Source: Patescibacteria group bacterium
GTDB taxonomy: Bacteria; Patescibacteriota; Patescibacteriia; Patescibacteriales; GWC2-42-12
Assembly: GCA_041662965.1 (NCBI GenBank)
Contig: JBAZRI010000005.1
Span: 6,166-70,165, forward strand
Reading direction: 5' to 3'
DNA length: 64,000 nt
This document shows positions 54,225 to 60,900 of the stretch, in pieces. Under the pieces are notes generated by a model. It did no database searches and was not told where the DNA came from. It was given only the letters and a program-made list of their open reading frames with translations. Position 1 is the first letter of the stretch. Each line of letters starts with the position of its first letter. The position numbers and the translations under genes were made by a program.

Positions 54225-55247
54225 TTATTTTAAAACCTTTTTAATATCCTCTATATTTTCCACTTTAACTAATTCCTGCCTTAACTTGCCGGCATTAGGC
54301 AGCCCGGACACATACCAGCATAAATGCTTGCGCATTTCAATTATCCCCTGCTTGCCTTTTAACTTATAGGCTAGTTCCGCGTGCTTTAAAGCTGTTTGAA
54401 AAATTAATTTTTTTGTTATGGGTTGCGAGTTATGAGTTACGAGTTGCGAGAAAATCCACGGCCTGCCTAAGGCGCCCTGGCCGATGCCTAGGCCGTCCGC
54501 GCCGGTTTTATTCAACAGTTCTTCGGCGCTAGCTCGGTCTTTAACTCCCCCGTTGGCTAAAATAATCCCTTTGAAATATTTTTTAGCCTGCCTAATTATT
54601 TCCCAGTCCACGCTGCCGCTATGTCCTTGCGCCAAACTCCTGCCATGAATCATGACAGCGGCTACGGGCAAATCTTTTATGCTTTCCAGAAAATCCAAAG
54701 CCGTTATCCGTCCAACCACTGAACGGCATTTTATAGACACCGGCAAATCAGTATTTTTTATTACCGCTTCAATAATTTTACGCGCTAATTTTAAATCGTT
54801 CATCAGTGCGGCGCCGGCTCCCTGTCTCGCCACTTTTTTTACCGGACAACCGAAATTTATGTCAATACCGTCAGGCTTAATCTTTCCGGTAATAAATTCA
54901 GCGGCTTGCGCGAAGTGCTCCGGCTTGCCGCCGAACAGCTGTATCACGAACGGCCGCTCTTTTTTATCAAACTTCATTAATGCTAAAGTTTTCTTAGAAT
55001 TATAAACGATAGCCGTGGCGCTGATCATTTCGCTGTAAACAACGTCGGCGCCGAATGATTTGCAGATTTGCCGAAAGGCCGAATCCGCTACTCCGGCCAT
55101 AGGCGCCAAAGCATAAATTGGTTTTTTTATTTTTGATTTATCCTGCGTAGCCTTGGCGAAGGAGGACCAAAAATTTTTTACCCTATTGGAAGCAATATTT
55201 TTTTGTTTAACCATATAATTTGAAAATTTGATGATTTTGTGATTCAA
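54225..55247 (-). CDS. tRNA-dihydrouridine synthase (Dus family)
   Basis: YALAPMAGVADSAFRQI, DINFGCP, IHGRS, GRPWIF. The true start may be the internal MVKQK at 55214. Confidence 0.85.
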   Translation of the reverse strand: MNHKIIKFSNYMVKQKNIASNRVKNFWSSFAKATQDKSKIKKPIYALAPMAGVADSAFRQICKSFGADVVYSEMISATAIVYNSKKTLALMKFDKKERPFVIQLFGGKPEHFAQAAEFITGKIKPDGIDINFGCPVKKVARQGAGAALMNDLKLARKIIEAVIKNTDLPVSIKCRSVVGRITALDFLESIKDLPVAAVMIHGRSLAQGHSGSVDWEIIRQAKKYFKGIILANGGVKDRASAEELLNKTGADGLGIGQGALGRPWIFSQLVTHNSQPITKKLIFQTALKHAELAYKLKGKQGIIEMRKHLCWYVSGLPNAGKLRQELVKVENIEDIKKVLK

Positions 55248-55278
55248 CTATTTTATATTTTAATTCTAACGGGGTGAA

Positions 55279-55319
55279 TAAAAAATGCGCGCCGTTTCTG
55301 ATTAAGAAGCAGCGCGCGG
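55279..55319 (-). terminator. Intrinsic terminator
   Basis: Minus strand GCGCGCTG...CGGCGCGC followed by ATTTTTTATT. Confidence 0.7.
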
Positions 55320-55326
55320 TTGATAA

Positions 55327-55479
55327 TTACTCCTCATCCCCCTCTTCGTTTTCAGGGCGCGAGTGCCGTGCTTGGTTAAATGCTTCTACAAATGGGACGG
55401 TACAAACAGTAATTAAAAAAACTGCCGCAATATATTCCCAGATACCTGTTCTGCTTAAAAAATTCATAATTGCTTCCAT
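55327..55479 (-). CDS. 50-aa single-TM peptide, SD-led, immediately downstream of cysS
   Basis: MEAIMNFLSRTGIWEYIAAVFLITVCTVPFVEAFNQARHSRPENEEGDEE*. AGGAGG starts 3 nt after the cysS stop. Confidence 0.5.
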   Translation of the reverse strand: MEAIMNFLSRTGIWEYIAAVFLITVCTVPFVEAFNQARHSRPENEEGDEE

Positions 55480-55493
55480 GAGCACTCCTCCTT

Positions 55494-56933
55494 TTATTTT
55501 TTCGTAATTCTTTGTCCGTTTTTAGTATCTTCAATATTATAGCCTAATTTTTCAATTTGCCAGCGCAGTTTATCCGATTCTTCAAAATTTTTATCTTGCC
55601 TGGCTTTTTCTCTGGCTCTGATTATTTTCTCAATTTCAACCGGAACTTTTTCTTCTTTTAACGCGCCGGCCAAGCCCAACCCTAAAACTTTATCAAAATC
55701 TAAAATCGTCGCTAATTTTTCCTCGTCTTTAATCTCTGACTTTAAAACTTCTTGGATTATAGCTAGCGCTTGCGGCGTATTTAAATCATCGTTAATCGCC
55801 CGCGAAAACTTTTCTTTAAAATTAGAATTTATACTTGCTACTTTATACTTTATACTTTTAACTTTTAACTCTTTTAGCTGATTATATAAATGTTTTAATC
55901 CTTCCGTTGCCGCCCCTAGCGCCTCCCAGCTAAAATTCATTACTTTGCCATAGCCGGTTTGTAAACATAAAAATCTAAAGGCTAAAGGGCTGATTTTCTT
56001 TTCTGCCAAATCTTTAAGCGTATAAAAATTATTAAACCGTTTGCTCATCTTTTTTCCATCCACTAACAAATATTCATTATGCAGCCAATAATTTACCGGC
56101 CTTTTGCATTTATATCCGATGACGCTTTGGTGTATTTCATTTTCATGATGAGGAAATTTTAAATCAACGCCGCCGGTGTGAATGTCAAAAGGCATGCCTA
56201 ACTCGGCCTGGCCCATGGCCGAGCATTCAATATGCCAGCCGGGCCGACCGGGTAATTTTTGCCCGTCAAGCTCAAACTGCCATGACGGCTCCCCTTGTTT
56301 TTGCCCTTTCCATAAAACAAAATCTTGAACATTGTCTTTTTCATATTCATCGCTGTCTATCCTAGCGCCTGATTTTAATTTTGAGACGTCAATATCAACT
56401 AATAAGCCGTATTTGTGTTTCTGGCTGTATTTAACTACGTCAAAATAAACCGAACCGTCTTTTATGTAAGCTAAGCCGGATTTAAAAATTTTCGCGACTA
56501 ACTCCTGCATTTTTTCAATATATTCAGTCGCTCGAGTTATTTTAATCTGCTGTTTTTCAATATTTAATTTTTCCAAATCCTGCCAAAAATAATTTTCAAA
56601 TTCAGCCGTAAATTTTTTTAAAGCTTGCATCGGGGGCATGTCCGGATATTTTATTTTTGAATCCCTGATGGTTTTATCGTCAACGTCGGTAATATTCATA
56701 ACCCATTTAACTTTTTTTTCGCCAAAATTATATTTTAAAACTCTATTTAAAATATCGGCAAAAACATAAGCCCTTAAATTGCCGACATGGGCGTAATTAT
56801 AAACCGTGGGCCCGCAAGTATATAATCCGACTGCCCCCTGTCCTTTATAAGGAGAGGGTCGGGGTGAGGTTTTAATCGGCTTGAATTCCTCTCTTTTGCG
56901 GCTAAGCGTATTGTATAAAAATAGTTTATTCAT
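55494..56933 (-). CDS. cysS: Cysteine--tRNA ligase
   Basis: YTCGPTVYNYAHVGNLR (HIGH-type), KMSKRF (KMSKS). Carries a ~10-aa repeat-derived insertion after FKPI. Confidence 0.95.
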   Translation of the reverse strand: MNKLFLYNTLSRKREEFKPIKTSPRPSPYKGQGAVGLYTCGPTVYNYAHVGNLRAYVFADILNRVLKYNFGEKKVKWVMNITDVDDKTIRDSKIKYPDMPPMQALKKFTAEFENYFWQDLEKLNIEKQQIKITRATEYIEKMQELVAKIFKSGLAYIKDGSVYFDVVKYSQKHKYGLLVDIDVSKLKSGARIDSDEYEKDNVQDFVLWKGQKQGEPSWQFELDGQKLPGRPGWHIECSAMGQAELGMPFDIHTGGVDLKFPHHENEIHQSVIGYKCKRPVNYWLHNEYLLVDGKKMSKRFNNFYTLKDLAEKKISPLAFRFLCLQTGYGKVMNFSWEALGAATEGLKHLYNQLKELKVKSIKYKVASINSNFKEKFSRAINDDLNTPQALAIIQEVLKSEIKDEEKLATILDFDKVLGLGLAGALKEEKVPVEIEKIIRAREKARQDKNFEESDKLRWQIEKLGYNIEDTKNGQRITKK

Positions 56934-56940
56934 AATTTTG

Positions 56941-57004
56941 CCCCCTTTATTAAAGGGGGTTAGGCCGCGCCCGCAACGCTTCGCTTGCGAGGCGGGCGGG
57001 GGGA
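56941..57004. repeat. Two GC-rich hairpin modules in the cysS leader
   Basis: ccccctttattaaaggggg (56941..56959) ends 7 nt before the ATG; ccgcgcccgcaacgcttcgcttgcgaggcgggcgg. Confidence 0.85.
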
Positions 57005-57019
57005 TTTTACCTTGTTTTT

Positions 57020-57048
57020 ATTCTACCCCACCGCCCTTTTTTAGGCAA
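57020..57048 (-). promoter_or_regulatory. Promoter-like TTGCCT-17-TAGAAT upstream of cysS
   Basis: -35 at 57043..57048 and -10 at 57020..57025, giving an ~86-nt leader. Confidence 0.5.
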
Positions 57049-57087
57049 GAAAAAGCCGTACGGAAATTAAATCTTCCGTACGGCCGT
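57049..57087 (-). terminator. Intrinsic terminator
   Basis: Minus strand GCCGTACGGAA-GATTTAA-TTCCGTACGGC followed by TTTTTC. Confidence 0.85.
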
Positions 57088-57102
57088 ATAGGTGGAGTTA
57101 CT

Positions 57103-57561
57103 TTATTTTTCAATATACTCCACATTCGTAACTTCATTATACTCCGGTATTTTTGCCTCGGGCACGGAGTGGACTTTAAAGGTTGCTAACTCCTCTGCCC
57201 TTTTTAGTAAAAAATTCGGTAAAAACCCGACATATATCGGACTGTTCGGATCTTTATCATATACCGACAAGATACTTGGCTCATCGGCGCCTTTTAAATA
57301 ATATGCTCGATCAAATTTATAAGTTGTTCCCGGCTTTAATTCATTGAAGGGCACCAATTTGCCAAATTTATTATTTTGGCTAATTAATATCCCTGCTATA
57401 AAAGCCCCGGCCGCCGCACAGATGGTTGGAAAAAAAATTAAGAAGGGATTAATAGTTTCTGATGCCGAATTAACTAAAATTGACATCAATACTATACCAA
57501 TAGCCATAAGAATCGGAACTGCTAAACATAATATCTTTACCCCACCGGATAATTTTATCAT
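57103..57561 (-). CDS. Hypothetical membrane protein (2 TM plus soluble domain), SD-led
   Basis: 152 aa. GGAGG 5 nt upstream of the ATG. Confidence 0.6.
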   Translation of the reverse strand: MIKLSGGVKILCLAVPILMAIGIVLMSILVNSASETINPFLIFFPTICAAAGAFIAGILISQNNKFGKLVPFNELKPGTTYKFDRAYYLKGADEPSILSVYDKDPNSPIYVGFLPNFLLKRAEELATFKVHSVPEAKIPEYNEVTNVEYIEK

Positions 57562-57708
57562 TCTTTCCTCCTTTTTTGCCTTATCGGCGTTTTTATGTTT
57601 ATAATAGCTTGTTATTTAAAAAGACCGCGCATTACTTTTCACAATTTCGCCCGCAGTTAGTATTACGTACGGGCAAAAAGTAAAAATTAATATGTTGTTA
57701 TATTATTG

Positions 57709-57849
57709 ATTGGGCTAAATTTATGAAATTTTCGTGAGATTACTGCAGTTAGGCTTGGAAAAATTGTTTTTATCGCGCATACGAAATTGTAGCGACCGCA
57801 GGGAGCCCAAATTTCGTCTAAGCAAAAAAAACAATTTTTCCAAGCCTAA
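57709..57849. repeat. Nested repeats: degenerate family-2 left half, then a full family-3 element with a family-1 module at its apex
   Basis: attgggctaaatttatgaaattttcgtgagattactgcag, then ttaggcttggaaaaattgttttt...gcgcatacgaaattgta-gcgaccgcagggagc-ccaaatttcgtctaagc...aaaaacaatttttccaagcctaa. Confidence 0.9.
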
Positions 57850-57894
57850 CGTATAACTACAATATTATTTCAATTTTCCTACCGCTTATTTTTG

Positions 57895-57957
57895 TATCCC
57901 CGCCTCCTCAGTGAAATATGCTCTGCATTTCACGGGGCTAGCCGCGGGGATGACAAA
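57895..57957. repeat. Nested GC hairpin ending in ggggatgac
   Basis: atccccgc...gtgaaat-atgctctgc-atttcac...gcggggatgac. Confidence 0.75.
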
Positions 57958-57966
57958 AAATATATA

Positions 57967-60900
57967 TTACAAATACTTCTCCGGATCTACGCTCGCGCCA
58001 TTTAGCAATACTTCAAAATGCAGATGCGCTCCGTTGGTATATGGTCCGGCGCCGGGCGTACCCGGCTTGCCGCCCGATAAGCCGATAATACCGCGCTGTT
58101 TAACCTGGTCGCCGACTTTAACGTCAAGGTGCGATAAATGGGCGTATCTGGTTATTAGGCCGTTGCCGTGGCTGATGGCGATATAACTCGCCTGATCGCT
58201 TGAGCCGTCGACAACTTCAATGACCGTGCCGGCGCCGGCCGCCTTGACCGAAGTGCCTTGGGATACGGCTATGTCTATGCCCGTATGTTCGCCGACAGAA
58301 TCTTTATAAGGATAATTAGTGTCATGCCAGCCGTAAGTTATGGCGCCGCTAACCGGCTTAATAAACGTTTTCGCCGTACCATTATTAGGCTGGCCGTTAT
58401 CTTCGCTGGCGCCGGTAGCGATGGTGAATTTATAGCTGTCAGTCGGGTCGCCGTTGATAAGCGCGCTGACTTTTGAAGATTTGCCTCGCGCCTTAAAATC
58501 GCTGAAATAAATATCCATATTTTTATCGGCGATTAATTCGCTGGTTTTAACATGGACATCAAAGACGGCTTCTTCTCCGGCCTTAACTACAAAGCCGCCT
58601 AAGCTGATTTTATTGGCGCCGGCTACCGGCCGGGTAATCGTACTGCCGGCGGTTTTTTGCTTATCGCGATTAATTACTTTTAAATTGCTGTAGCCTAAGC
58701 TATAGGTTAATTCCCGGTCAGCCGAATTAATGGTAATTGACTCTAACTTTAAATCTTCAATGCCTGAATTTTTAACTTTAAAGCCGGCGACGACATTGTC
58801 ATTTTCGCCCTTGGTTACGAAGCCTTCGGTAACTTTGGTAATCTCCGCCGAGGCCGGGCCGAAAGCGGTCTTATGGCTGTTAACATTTAAATTATTAACC
58901 ACAGCCGGTATTAAAGAATTATTGTTAACCGCGGCTAAATTGCTGATCGCCAACTGGACTTCCGAAGCTTTAAGGTCGGTTTCCGTATCGGCGTAAACTT
59001 TTATTTCCGCTCTGGCGCCTGACTTTAAAATATATTTAAAGCCGGCGGCGGTTAAGTCATTTGAATAAGGATTTTTAATCTCTTTAATTTTGGTTGAACC
59101 GATATAAAACTTTAAATTGCTGAAGCCGTTGTCAAAAGAAATCACGCCCGAGCTAGCGCCGCCGCGGGCAAAAGTCAAATCGGTTATTTTAGTATCGCCG
59201 CCGGCCGCGCCCTCTACGATAAAGCTGGCGATCTTAATATTTTTTTGCCCCTTGATAAAAGCCTGATCGCCTAAGTCATTATTAGGATAAAGATAAAGGC
59301 TGGATTTACTGATCATTAATTTAGCGCCGGCGATATTAACCGTATCGGAGAAGGAAGCGCCGCTCCCAATGCTATAATCAAGGCTGTTTAAAATTATTTT
59401 GTAATAGCCGCCGTTGGACACGCTCTCCGGCACCTTAGTGACTAAAGCAACAACTAAATTTTGCTTGGCCGCTAAATTCAGTTCGCCTAAATCAACGCTA
59501 GCTTTGCCGTTATTAAATTCATCGCCGTCAAAATTATCATAAACTTCGCCGCTATTATAATTAACCAAGTAGATAACCCCGGTTAAATTAGGCGAGGCGC
59601 TATTTTTTTCCAAACTAAAAGTCAAGCGATTTAAGCTTATTTTTTGGTTATTATTCCTGATTTCAAAATTGCCGATAATTACGCCGGTCTGCTTGGTGAA
59701 AACTTTATTATTGGCCTTTAGCTCTTTGGCCGTAACGCCGACCGCTTCCCTTTTAATGGTTATATTTTCTTCAAGATTGGCTATACTGACATACAAGCTA
59801 TAGTTTCCCTGGGAGCTTAAAACTTTAGCTTCTTTAAGATAAAGATTGATCAGCTTGCCGTCGCCGCCGATAACATCGGCGGAAACGGTGAAAGTTTCAT
59901 CGCCGCCTTTTTTGATTTTATAATTGTTTAATTTAAAAACTATTTCCTTATCGCCAGCCGCTTCGGAAACGGTAGAAATAATTTGGCCGGCTTTATTTTT
60001 TAACTTGAAGTTATTTAAACTGGGCACGATAACCTTGCTCTGATTGGAAAATTTTAATTCTTTGACGAAAACATCGGATCGGCTGGAAGTTTCAGCTAAA
60101 TTGAATTTACCGATATTTTTTTCCGTTGAGCCGATAATCGCCTGATTATTATTAATGCCTAAAGACTGCTCGCTAACGGCAACGCTTTCTAAAACTCCGA
60201 CTCCGGAGATAAGCTTAAAGGTTTCTCCGGCTAAAGGAAAGGCGCCTAAAGCTTTGGCGCCAGTAATACTCGCGGCCTGGCTGATAACGACCGAGAAGGC
60301 CTGATTAGCAACCTCGGCCGAGTTATCGTTAAAATCTACATAAACTTTTAATTTTTTGGTTTCACCCGAATTAATAACCATCGGCTTATTCGTAAAATTA
60401 AAAATCGCCTGCCTGCCATGCAACCTAAAATAAGCCGGATATTCAATATCGCTTTCATCGGTTAAATAAAATTTTTTGATTACTTCTTGATTAAAAAAGC
60501 CTTTTAAATCTAAAACCAAATTTGTAATTTCCACCTGTCGGCCGTCAGCTTTTAAATTAAAAACAGCCGTTAAATTATCTTGCGTGCCAATAGCCAAATA
60601 ATCAGGCCCCGGACTGGAAGCGTCTAAAGCAACCGACAGCGGATTATCGCTATAATCTCCGATTGCGCCGGCGGCTTTGAAGTCGGCCGTATCATATTCG
60701 GCTAAGTCGGCCTGGGCGATTGTTACGATGTCCGGCCATTTAAAGCCTGAATCAATAAACTGCTGGGCCGATTCAATTACGGCTTTCCGGCCGTTAGCAA
60801 TATAATAAACGGCTTTATCGTTACCGGCTTTAACCAGTTTAACTTCCGGCCATTTATTTAATTCCGCCTGGCTGATAACTTTAATATCGCTCCATTTATT

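What the first reader, a model, noticed from the sequence alone, without database searches (positions are those of the whole stretch)
56834..57004. The same hairpin module sits in the cysS leader and, in frame, in the cysS N-terminus
ccccctttattaaaggggg (56941..56959) ends 7 nt before the cysS ATG. A related hairpin ccctgtcctttataaggagaggg plus gtcggggtgagg (56834..56870) lies inside the CDS. It encodes ...KPIKTSPRPSPYKGQGAVGLYTCGPT..., about 9-10 residues more than the usual short linker between the conserved FKP and the GxYxCGPT(V)Y motif, by my recollection of CysS alignments. An essential aminoacyl-tRNA synthetase seems to tolerate a repeat insertion next to its HIGH region. The leader hairpin next to the start codon could also modulate initiation.
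Basis: partly seen in the sequence, partly recalled or inferred. Interest (0 to 1): 0.6.

Follow-up and report, generated by a model that had tools for sequence, protein, structure and literature searches.

The report
Triplex-type repeat inserted inside cysS
A 36-base GC-rich repeat of the BoxC/"intrastrand triplex motif" family, known from E. coli as strictly intergenic, sits in frame in the essential cysteinyl-tRNA synthetase gene of a Patescibacteria (CPR) bacterium, where it adds a floppy 10-residue loop, and a second, interrupted repeat of the same superfamily sits in the gene's leader.

Summary
cysS (55494-56933, minus strand) carries exactly 10 extra residues (TSPRPSPYKG, residues 22-31) between FKPI and VGLYTCGPT. 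Solved CysRS structures lack them, as do 53 of 62 close homologs.

The DNA encoding them (56836-56871) is the only GC-rich three-block "intrastrand triplex" motif in the 64-kb window. It is about 86% identical over 36 nt to E. coli BoxC/PIT/TMECO repeats and shares an exact 19-mer with them (Holder et al. 2015).

Near-identical DNA lies at the same codon in two other Patescibacteria, whose sister lineages (91% and 83% identical CysS) have an empty site. Other triplex-like repeats occupy the same loop in further lineages, so the loop repeatedly accepts such repeats. AlphaFold2 models the insert as a low-confidence loop.

The leader hairpin (56941-56959) belongs to an AT-adapted "type A" branch of the same superfamily, found in at least 120 metagenome stretches. 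Here a unique 36-nt GC palindrome (56965-57000) splits its third block.

The two hairpins are therefore superfamily relatives, not copies of each other. Their raw pairwise similarity is not significant.

The most likely reading is tolerated selfish or passenger DNA. Any effect on translation start is untested. This is a new member of a known kind, in an unusual location.

The parts
55494..56933 (-). cysS (cysteine--tRNA ligase), 479 aa
   Evidence: The ORF is listed. Pfam tRNA-synt_1e matches at E 9e-87, with CysS_C and DALR_2 also hit. The product is 100% identical to a protein named cysteine--tRNA ligase from a Patescibacteria group MAG.
56836..56871 (+). In-frame BoxC/TMECO-type (type-B-like) intrastrand triplex motif. 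The G-rich strand is the + strand, which is the template strand of cysS. Blocks: C-stem CCCTGTCCTT 56836-45, loop TAT, G-stem AAGGAGAGGG 56849-58, loop TCG, third strand GGGTGAGGTT 56862-71.
   Evidence: It is the only such motif in the window, with 10 triads and 1 mismatch. Chance expectation is 0.01. The 19-mer GGAGAGGGTCGGGGTGAGG is identical to E. coli TMECO copies. It is about 86% identical over 36 nt to E. coli chromosomes in 2740 genomes.
56841..56870 (-). The 30 nt (10 codons, residues 22-31, TSPRPSPYKG) that are extra relative to orthologs
   Evidence: There is an exact 10-residue gap against 1LI5/1U0B and 8QHP and against 53 of 62 homologs. pLDDT is below 50 at residues 23-28 and 30-32 in a model with mean pLDDT 91.
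56941..56964 (+). Leader repeat, first part: hairpin CCCCCTTT-ATT-AAAGGGGG (56941-56959), then loop 2 TTA and the first GG of the third strand. This is an AT-adapted type-A triplex motif.
   Evidence: Perfect hairpin. RNA folding energy is -12.3 kcal/mol. The family CCCCCTT..AAGGGGGTTAGGGG(GATTT) is found in at least 120 metagenome stretches and in CPR relatives L132, L126 and L134.
56965..57000 (+). Nested 36-nt GC-rich palindrome (CCGCGCCCGCAACGCTTCGCTTGCGAGGCGGGCGGG) that interrupts the third strand of the leader repeat. Its boundaries are ambiguous by 1-3 G.
   Evidence: Removing it restores a 9-triad motif with a TTA loop. RNA hairpin energy is -22.8 kcal/mol. No other copy was found in 3.4 Mb of fetched loci or in viral contigs.
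57001..57008 (+). Remainder of the leader repeat's third strand (GGGATTTT)
   Evidence: It matches the consensus ...TTAGGGGGATTT of intact copies.
57020..57048 (-). Promoter-like site TTGCCT-17-TAGAAT upstream of cysS. The leader repeat lies in the predicted roughly 85-nt 5' UTR.
   Evidence: Consensus scan. The same roughly 35-nt stretch is conserved upstream of cysS in L001, whose CysS is 70% identical.
57054..57085 (-). Intrinsic-terminator-like hairpin of the upstream 152-aa gene
   Evidence: 13 pairs followed by a T-run.

Best explanation
Both hairpins are copies of the BoxC / PIT / "TM" (intrastrand triplex motif) superfamily. This is a family of small, GC-rich, three-block dispersed repeats (C-block, loop, G-block, 3-nt loop, second G-block). 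They occur across bacterial phyla, and no transposase is known for them.

The CDS copy is type-B-like. It entered cysS as a net +30-nt replacement of 3-4 native codons in the surface loop between strands beta2 and beta3 of the Rossmann fold, just before the Zn-ligand Cys and the HIGH-equivalent motif. Its C-rich strand is the sense strand. It has no stop codon and its length is a multiple of three, so it is translated as a Pro/Ser-rich disordered loop that the enzyme tolerates.

The leader copy is an AT-adapted type-A element. It sits in the 5' UTR and has itself been split by a nested GC palindrome.

The elements are most likely selfish or passenger DNA. They survive where they do little harm: a permissive loop and an untranslated leader. 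The same loop carries independently acquired triplex-like repeats in several related lineages.

**Shown here:** family identity, delimitation of the insert, patchy phylogenetic distribution, filled and empty sites, the low-confidence loop.

**Inferred:** neutrality for CysRS function, the mode of insertion, and any effect of the leader hairpin (which ends 7 nt from the ATG) on translation initiation.
For: **Family identity**
- The window's + strand 56836-56871 fits a class II triplex architecture with 10 triads, 1 mismatch and loops of 3 and 3 nt. It is unique in the window, with 0.01 expected by chance.
- Holder et al. 2015 (PMC4666352) define TMECO/BoxC. Their E. coli copies contain the identical 19-mer GGAGAGGGTCGGGGTGAGG.
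- blastn finds about 86% identity over the 36-nt element in 2740 E. coli genomes, with no annotated feature under any of the listed hits. One example, between yggN and yggL, was inspected.
- CCTCACCCCNNCCCTCTCC occurs in at least 120 viral-contig stretches of 38-74% GC. Nearly all are followed by loop + GGGAGAGGG.

**Insertion rather than an ancestral loop**
- 53 of 62 homologs have no insert.
- The three carriers of this element (window, P0005, P0020) are not monophyletic on an NJ tree. Their sisters are empty (P0037 91%, P0022 83% identical).
- Filled/empty DNA alignments show a clean +30-nt difference with about 90-95% identical flanks.
- Third-codon-position identity is 77-92% inside the element against 57-59% in flanking cysS.

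**Permissive loop**
- Four other insert types occupy the same loop: P0004, P0007/9/23, P0018 and P0036. The three for which DNA was obtained (P0004, P0007, P0036) have C-box/C-box/G-box DNA. P0018 is known only as protein. A fifth type (P0085/P0089) looks like a different repeat.
- The AF2 model has mean pLDDT 91, but below 50 at residues 23-28 and 30-32.
- Solved CysRS structures show an exact 10-residue gap at this point.

**Leader copy**
- Intact relatives CCCCCTTT-nnn-AAAGGGGG-TTA-GGGGGATTT occur in CPR loci (L132, L126, L134) and in at least 120 metagenome stretches.
- Deleting 56965-57000 restores the motif.
- L126 (CysS 71% identical) likewise has such repeats both in its cysS leader and in frame at the same loop.

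**In-frame copies in other real genes**
- An N6 DNA methylase, a TPR membrane protein and a 2143-aa viral ORF each carry one.
Against: - The CDS copy fails the strict published TMECO regular expression at 4 positions: CCCTGTCCT for CCCTCNCCC, AGGAGAGGG for GGGNGAGGG, and GGGTGAGGT for GGGNGAGGG.
- Published copies in E. coli are always intergenic.
- Only one intact and one interrupted copy are visible in 64 kb, so multi-copy status in this genome is unproven.
- All three carriers have identical junctions. This fits site-specific insertion, but also a single origin followed by short-patch recombination or by losses.
- No mobility mechanism is known.
- Neutrality for the enzyme is inferred from a structure prediction only. 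The position of the loop relative to tRNA was not examined.
- The nested-insertion reading of the leader rests on a deletion scan, which involves multiple testing, plus comparison with intact copies.
Confidence: 0.8

Rival explanations
1. The two hairpins are a cis-regulatory RNA system for cysS. The leader hairpin masks a G-rich ribosome-binding site or start region. The early-CDS hairpin pauses ribosomes. Together they tune CysRS synthesis.
For: - The leader folds better than shuffled sequences (z = -3.2).
- The hairpin (-12.3 kcal/mol) ends 7 nt before the ATG, and its 3' arm AAAGGGGG is at Shine-Dalgarno distance.
- In L126 a degenerate second copy of the repeat supplies AAAGAGGAG 8 nt before the cysS ATG.
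Against: - No Rfam family, T-box or riboswitch matches; all hits fall far below gathering scores.
- Neither hairpin is present in the closest relatives. Their cysS appear leaderless or carry a different repeat in the leader.
- The CDS segment does not fold better than shuffles (z = -0.9).
- Only about 12% of ORFs in the window have an SD-like 4-mer upstream.
- Published tests of BoxC/PIT elements in E. coli found no promoter, terminator or expression role.
Confidence: 0.1
2. The insert arose once in cysS and reached its patchy distribution through short-patch homologous recombination between lineages or repeated precise losses. It did not arise by repeated insertion at a hot spot.
For: - The three carriers have identical junctions, the same frame and the same net +30 nt.
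- The flanking cysS motifs are highly conserved at the DNA level and could support recombination.
Against: - In the L002/L212 pair the flanks follow the sister relationship right up to the element, so any conversion tract would be shorter than about 45 nt.
- Precise loss would have to recreate the native KKD/E codons.
- At least four other distinct repeats entered the same loop at slightly different junctions, so independent events do occur there.
Confidence: 0.25
3. The extra residues are a functional, lineage-specific CysRS loop maintained by selection on the protein, for example for tRNA or partner binding.
For: The peptide pattern TSP-x-PSP-x-KG-x-G is similar in three homologs, and the reading frame is intact.
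Against: - The carriers are not a clade, and their sisters at 83-91% identity lack the insert.
- The DNA is more conserved than synonymous sites in the flanks.
- The DNA matches a non-coding repeat of E. coli.
- The region is predicted to be disordered.
Confidence: 0.05
4. The resemblance is due to chance or to an assembly artefact.
For: Raw pairwise similarity between the leader and CDS hairpins is not significant (p = 0.09).
Against: - The motif is unique in the window, with 0.01 expected by chance.
- The same element lies at the same codon in independent assemblies from NCBI, ENA and JGI.
- There are hundreds of family members elsewhere.
Confidence: 0.02

Closest known systems
BoxC / PIT elements / TMECO intrastrand triplex motifs (Bergler-era BoxC; Hoyne & Maher 2000, 2002; Holder et al. 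2015, PMC4666352)
   Same: - Both have the three-block architecture: C-stem, loop, G-stem, 3-nt loop, G-stem.
- The window shares an identical 19-mer GGAGAGGGTCGGGGTGAGG with E. coli type B copies.
- The TTA second loop of type A appears in the leader copy.
- Distribution crosses phyla, no transposase is linked, and copies cluster locally.
   Different: - This host is a roughly 40% GC Patescibacteria genome.
- The stems are extended by A-T pairs and have AT-rich loops.
- The strict TMECO pattern is missed at 4 positions.
- One copy lies in frame inside an essential gene, whereas E. coli copies are reported as always intergenic.
- The leader copy carries a nested insertion.
- The two copies are in direct orientation, not the inverted A+B pair seen in E. 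coli.
Rickettsia palindromic elements (RPE; Ogata et al. 2000; recalled from knowledge, and cited in papers found)
   Same: Both are selfish palindromic repeats inserted in frame into protein-coding genes, including essential ones. Both are tolerated as surface segments.
   Different: RPEs are about 100-150 bp, specific to alphaproteobacteria and unrelated in sequence. They have no triplex architecture.
REP/REPIN elements and cyanobacterial small dispersed repeats (papers listed: PMC3116915, PMC3733652; Elhai et al. 2008 recalled from knowledge)
   Same: Both are short GC-rich palindromes dispersed in many copies. Nesting of small repeats inside other repeats is described for cyanobacteria, as seen here in the leader and in the window's GTCATTGCGAG family.
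   Different: - REPs carry GTAG/CGTC tags and depend on RAYT transposases. Neither tag is present in these elements.
- REPs are species-specific, whereas this motif is conserved across phyla.

Membership tests
Intrastrand triplex motif (ITxF definition, Holder et al. 2015) | Three consecutive blocks able to form C-G*G / T-A*A / T-A*T triads. Stem 6-15 nt, at most 1 mismatched triad, loops 1-6 nt. | tested here: met
   For the CDS copy, my own scan gives 10 triads, 1 mismatch and loops of 3 and 3 nt at 56836-56871. The leader copy meets the definition (9 triads, TTA loop) only after removal of 56965-57000.
TMECO / BoxC (strict) | Pattern 5'-CCCTCNCCC N3-6 GGGNGAGGG N3 GGGNGAGGG-3' | tested here: not met
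   The window has CCCTGTCCT-TTATA-AGGAGAGGG-TCG-GGGTGAGGT. That is 4 deviations, mostly at the stem ends, which are replaced by A-T pairs. The core 19-mer is identical to E. coli copies #12 and #20. I therefore file it in the superfamily, not as a strict TMECO.
TMECO / BoxC | Sequence conserved across genomes and present in many copies | tested here: inconclusive
   Cross-genome conservation is met: at least 120 viral stretches, 2740 E. coli genomes and 3 CPR cysS genes. Copy number in this genome cannot be judged from 64 kb, where one intact and one interrupted copy are visible.
TMECO / BoxC | Intergenic location (reported as 'always' in E. coli K-12) | tested here: not met
   The CDS copy is in frame in cysS. 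The leader copy is intergenic, in the 5' UTR.
TMECO / BoxC | Forms a purine-motif triplex in vitro (CD/NMR) | not testable with these tools
   Only the base-triad rules were checked.
MITE | Terminal inverted repeats plus a target-site duplication | tested here: not met
   Filled/empty alignments show no flanking direct repeat. Instead, 9-12 native nt are replaced.
T-box / riboswitch / other curated leader RNA | Match to an Rfam covariance model | tested here: not met
   No hit near a gathering score in 55000-58000. The best hit overlapping the leader reaches 19.5 bits against a cutoff of 51.
Class I cysteinyl-tRNA synthetase (host gene) | tRNA-synt_1e catalytic domain, Zn-ligand Cys in xCGPT, HIGH-type motif, anticodon-binding domain | tested here: met
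   Pfam PF01406 matches at E 9e-87, with CysS_C also hit. C40, H49, G51 and N52 are invariant in 81 homologs. The protein aligns to 1LI5 along its full length.

The most novel reading that the evidence does not exclude
Triplex-type repeats may spread without a transposase, by a structure- or microhomology-directed templated copying that homes to short homopurine tracts. The native cysS linker AAAAARGAYRRGG resembles the repeat's purine arm AAAGGAGAGGG. That would explain several features together: the same codon hit repeatedly, identical junctions, replacement of 9-12 native nt, and no target duplication. If so, the cysS filled/empty pairs in Patescibacteria would be a natural experiment on how BoxC-like repeats move, a question left open since the 1990s.
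Probability: 0.15. Interest if true: 0.8.

Novelty: new member of a known kind. Interest (0 to 1): 0.45.

Why it matters
BoxC/PIT/TM repeats are among the most widely conserved small repeats in bacteria, yet their origin, mobility and function remain unknown. The literature I could search describes them as intergenic.

Four points follow from this case:
- The family extends into the CPR/Patescibacteria, in an AT-adapted form.
- It can live in frame inside an essential aminoacyl-tRNA synthetase, 8 residues from the zinc-binding cysteine.
- One surface loop of CysRS has accepted such repeats repeatedly.
- Close filled/empty allele pairs exist that expose the insertion junctions.

There are also practical consequences. 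Pro/Ser-rich inserts of this kind (SPxPSPxKGEG, PLTPFxKGE) in metagenomic proteins should be read as repeat-derived, not as functional motifs. They can also mislead alignments and domain boundaries.

Tried and rejected
- **Rfam.** An E-value scan of 55000-58000 gave only sub-threshold noise. The T-box/riboswitch idea was dropped.
- **Exact and near-exact searches in the window.** Searches for the two hairpin sequences found no further copies.
- **Nested 36-nt palindrome.** It has no relative in 3.4 Mb of fetched loci at up to 8 substitutions, nor in viral contigs. It remains unexplained.
- **Literature searches.** Searches on 'CCTCACCCC' + repeat, and on Patescibacteria + palindromic, were uninformative. 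The productive search was CCCTCTCCC + GGGAGAGGG + bacteria.
- **Stop-to-stop ORF spanning test on viral contigs.** It did not discriminate coding from non-coding DNA in high-GC contigs. I relied instead on individual low-GC or very long ORFs and Pfam.
- **P0018 DNA.** The DNA for the 21-residue insert could not be fetched. Reading it as a partly duplicated repeat rests on back-translation only.
- **Enrichment of triplex repeats in cysS.** I make no such claim, because the loci containing them were chosen for having inserts. The unbiased species-representative set has none in cysS.
- **Third-strand covariation.** I considered using the 124 metagenome copies as evidence for a triplex but rejected it. 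The variation tracks subfamilies and has low power.
Full report
**1. What is there**

The window is about 40% GC. cysS lies on the minus strand at 55494-56933 and encodes 479 aa.
- Pfam tRNA-synt_1e matches at E 9e-87, with CysS_C and DALR_2 also hit.
- The product is 100% identical to a protein that NCBI names cysteine--tRNA ligase of a "Patescibacteria group bacterium" MAG. The nearest other homologs are 74% identical or less over the full length, or 77% over conserved columns.

Upstream elements, read on the minus strand:
- the terminator-like hairpin of the preceding gene (57085-57054);
- a promoter-like TTGCCT-17-TAGAAT (57048-57020), conserved over about 35 nt in relative L001;
- a GC-rich leader of about 85 nt with two hairpins (z = -3.2 against shuffles);
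- the ATG at 56933.

**2. Delimiting the insert**

phmmer alignments to solved CysRS (E. coli 1LI5/1U0B, and 8QHP) show one exact 10-residue gap opposite query residues 22-31, TSPRPSPYKG.
- In a MAFFT alignment of 62 close homologs, 53 have the short linker FKPI-K-KDE-VGLYTCGPT and 9 carry an insert in this loop.
- The insert ends 8 residues before Cys40. By the alignment this equals E. coli Cys28, a zinc ligand; the ligand identity is from my knowledge of Newberry et al. 2002.
- It ends 17 residues before H49-V-G-N52, the HIGH equivalent. H49, G51 and N52 are invariant in 81 homologs.
- An AlphaFold2 model built on the 81-sequence alignment has mean pLDDT 91 and pTM 0.88. Its only stretches below 50 are residues 23-28 and 30-32, between strands 13-16 and 35-39.

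The insert is therefore predicted to be a flexible loop. I could not inspect coordinates, so its distance from the tRNA is not established.

**3. What the DNA is**

On the + strand, which is the template strand of cysS, 56836-56871 reads CCCTGTCCTT-tat-AAGGAGAGGG-tcg-GGGTGAGGTT.
- The first two blocks form the hairpin.
- The third block can lie antiparallel on the purine arm with G*G, A*A and T*A triads.
- That makes 10 triads with one mismatch, the G/C mismatch in the hairpin.
- My scan for such class II intrastrand triplex motifs finds only this one in both strands of the 64 kb.
- 100 first-order Markov simulations gave 0.01 GC-rich motifs per window.

A literature search on CCCTCTCCC/GGGAGAGGG led to Holder et al. 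2015 (PMC4666352). It describes this element as BoxC, also called PIT elements, also called TMECO.
- E. coli K-12 has 23 copies.
- Type A has loop 2 = TTA; type B has loop 2 = CCG or TCG.
- The copies are always intergenic and show no association with transposases.
- The motif forms a purine-motif triplex in vitro and is linked to local genomic instability.

E. coli copies #12 and #20 contain the identical 19-mer GGAGAGGGTCGGGGTGAGG.
- blastn of the window segment against 5426 complete E. coli genomes finds about 86% identity over the 36-nt element in 2740 of them.
- No annotated feature lies under any of the listed hits.
- One example lies between yggN and yggL, next to an inverted type A partner.
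These span 38-74% GC, and nearly all continue with loop + GGGAGAGGG(A/G)G.

The window copy misses the strict TMECO regular expression at four positions, mainly because the stem ends are A-T pairs. It belongs to the superfamily as an AT-adapted type-B-like member.

**4. Insertion, not heritage**

The same element lies at the same codon in two other Patescibacteria cysS genes.
- L001/P0005 has ACCTCACCCCAACCCTCTCCTTGTAAAGGAGAGGGAGTT.
- L002/P0020 has ACCTCACCCCAGCCCTCTCCTTCTAAAGGAGGGGGAGTT.
- These CysS are only 64-70% identical to the query.
- Identity at third codon positions is 77-92% inside the element against 57-59% in 261 nt of flanking cysS.

An NJ tree was built on 455 conserved columns with the loop masked.
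- The three carriers fall in different places, each next to insert-free sisters.
- P0020 sits beside P0037 (91% identical). P0005 sits beside P0022 and P0014 (83% and 82%).
- The query sits beside P0012 in the tree, and its most similar homologs (P0002, P0003) also lack this element.

Filled/empty DNA alignments show flanks that are about 90-95% identical right up to the element.
- The net difference is +30 nt.
- 9-12 native nucleotides (AAGGACAAG and the like) are replaced.
- There is no target-site duplication.

Other lineages carry different repeats in the same loop.
- P0004/L126 has ACCCCCCATACCCCCCTTGTCAGGGGGGGTG.
- P0036/L128 has CCCTCTTC...GGAGAGGG.
- P0007/L127 has CACCCCTC..GAGGGG.
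- P0018 has a 21-residue insert that looks, by back-translation only, like a partly duplicated element.

The loop is thus a recurrent landing or survival site. Identical junctions in the three carriers leave open site-specific insertion or short-patch recombination. The L002/L212 flanks limit any conversion tract to under about 45 nt.

**5. The leader hairpin**

On the + strand the leader reads CCCCCTTT-att-AAAGGGGG-TTA-GG[CCGCGCCCGCAACGCTTCGCTTGCGAGGCGGGCGGG]GGGATTTT.
- Removing the bracketed 36 nt (56965-57000) restores a 9-triad motif with the type A loop TTA.
- Intact copies of this AT-adapted type exist in CPR relatives. One is L132 2863-2893, CCCCCTTTAaCAAAGGGGGttaGGGGGATTT. Others are in L126, L134 and L207.
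Their consensus is ...attCCCCCTT(T)..(A)AAGGGGGTTAGGGGGATTT.
- Most of these copies are spanned only by short ORFs, so they are likely intergenic.

In L126 (CysS 71% identical), repeats of this type lie both in the cysS leader and in frame at the same loop. A degenerate tandem copy there supplies AAAGAGGAG 8 nt before the ATG.

The nested 36-nt palindrome (RNA hairpin -22.8 kcal/mol) has no other copy in anything I could search. Nesting of small hairpins inside repeats is nonetheless common in this window's other repeat family.

**6. Are the two hairpins "the same module"?**

They are the same only at superfamily level.
- Both have the block order C-box, 2-3 nt, C-box, loop, G-box on the mRNA strand.
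- Both have their C-rich strand as the sense strand.
- They lie about 105 nt apart in direct orientation.
- The stems differ: CCCTCTCC against CCCCCTTT.
- The raw local alignment is not significant (p = 0.09). After the nested 36 nt are removed it is collinear over all three blocks (p = 0.005).

**7. How it most likely works**

*Shown.* It is a dispersed repeat copy that is translated as a disordered Pro/Ser-rich loop.

*Inferred.*
- It is tolerated because the beta2-beta3 loop is permissive.
- The orientation places the C-rich strand as sense. This avoids the TGA/TAG stops carried by some frames of the G-rich strand. It also keeps the triplex/G4-prone strand off the displaced non-template strand. 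All five in-frame CPR copies, and the clear in-frame copies elsewhere, share this orientation. The numbers are small.
- Purine-motif triplexes do not form in RNA, so at the mRNA level these are ordinary hairpins, of -11.2 kcal/mol in the CDS and -12.3 in the leader.
- The leader hairpin ends 7 nt before the ATG, inside a 30S footprint, so it could lower initiation. Its G-run could serve as a weak Shine-Dalgarno sequence. Against this, only about 12% of ORFs here have SD-like 4-mers, and most relatives' cysS appear leaderless, with a -10 box 6-8 nt before the ATG. Any regulatory role is therefore speculative.

**8. Context and novelty**

In-frame copies are not unique to cysS.
- L299 is an N6 DNA methylase with ...NN-PLTPFDKGEGKE-KQ....
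- L327 is a TPR membrane protein.
- L116 is a 2143-aa viral ORF with PSPQPSPGRGEG.
- P0089 carries a copy at a second site in its cysS.

The papers I could find describe these repeats as intergenic in E. coli and in archaea. This is therefore a new member of a known family in an unusual host and location, not a new kind of element. The nearest analogy for behaviour is the Rickettsia palindromic element, which is unrelated in sequence.

**Verdict.** Interest is moderate.

Noticed in passing
window 9534, 9560, 11610, 11997, 12048, 15887, 17772/17859, 21977/22085, 30399/30516/30540, 40001/40152, 52232: The window holds a second, much more abundant repeat family with termini GTCATTGCGAG...CTCGCAATGAC. 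There are 16 matches against 0.69 expected. Copies are MITE-like units of about 100-160 nt with GACGAAGCAATCTC inner arms and variable small hairpins nested inside. The same family occupies the cysS leader in relatives L001 and L130, and copies end 6-10 nt before several ATGs in the window.
   Followed up: partly
window 56965-57000: The 36-nt GC palindrome nested in the leader repeat contains the GCGAAGC mini-hairpin motif on the minus strand. It has no other copy in 3.4 Mb of fetched loci or in viral contigs. Its origin is unexplained.
   Followed up: yes
L004, L130, L002, L212, L127, L128, L135, L137 (cysS 5' ends): Most relatives have a -10-like hexamer (TAATAT, TAAACT, TAGACT or TATTAT) only 6-8 nt before the cysS ATG and no Shine-Dalgarno sequence. 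This suggests leaderless cysS mRNAs. In the window only about 12% of long ORFs have an SD-like 4-mer upstream.
   Followed up: partly
L126 305-333, 701-729, 833-861: Three triplex-type repeats lie within 560 nt. One is just before the DUF559 gene. One overlaps that gene's 3' end and the cysS leader, and has a degenerate tandem copy that provides AAAGAGGAG as a ribosome-binding site. One is in frame in cysS. Repeats of this family cluster locally, as in E. coli.
   Followed up: partly
L129 11071-11104 (P0089 residues about 357-368); L130 11053-11073: cysS has a second permissive region, the variable linker before the anticodon-binding domain. It carries an in-frame triplex repeat in P0089 (..NPPSPPFEKGG..). 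In P0003 it carries a different hairpin repeat (..LRQGFGGQA..).
   Followed up: partly
L129 10001-10110 (P0085/P0089 N-terminus): The same beta2-beta3 loop holds a 14-residue insert (ASLAVIAPQLSNPLKEK) encoded by GCTTCGCTCGCTGTAATTGC.... This resembles the GTCATTGCGAG-type repeat rather than a triplex motif.
   Followed up: no
L299 (N6_Mtase ORF, aa about 366), L327 (TPR membrane protein, aa about 350), L116 (2143-aa ORF, aa 1447), L105, L027: In-frame triplex-motif copies occur in unrelated real genes from metagenomes and viral contigs. They are translated as PLTPFxKGE.. or PSPQPSPxxGEG... About 7% of the type-A copies sampled lie in ORFs of at least 300 aa.
   Followed up: partly
window 57748-57850: A 41-nt-arm inverted repeat (88% complementary, 21-nt spacer) lies upstream of the 152-aa gene. 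It explains the weak miRNA-family Rfam hits and the mirrored 40-aa ORFs there.
   Followed up: no
window 55327-55485: A small 52-aa ORF with a good AAGGAGG ribosome-binding site starts immediately downstream of cysS. It looks like a hydrophobic peptide and has no Pfam match.
   Followed up: no
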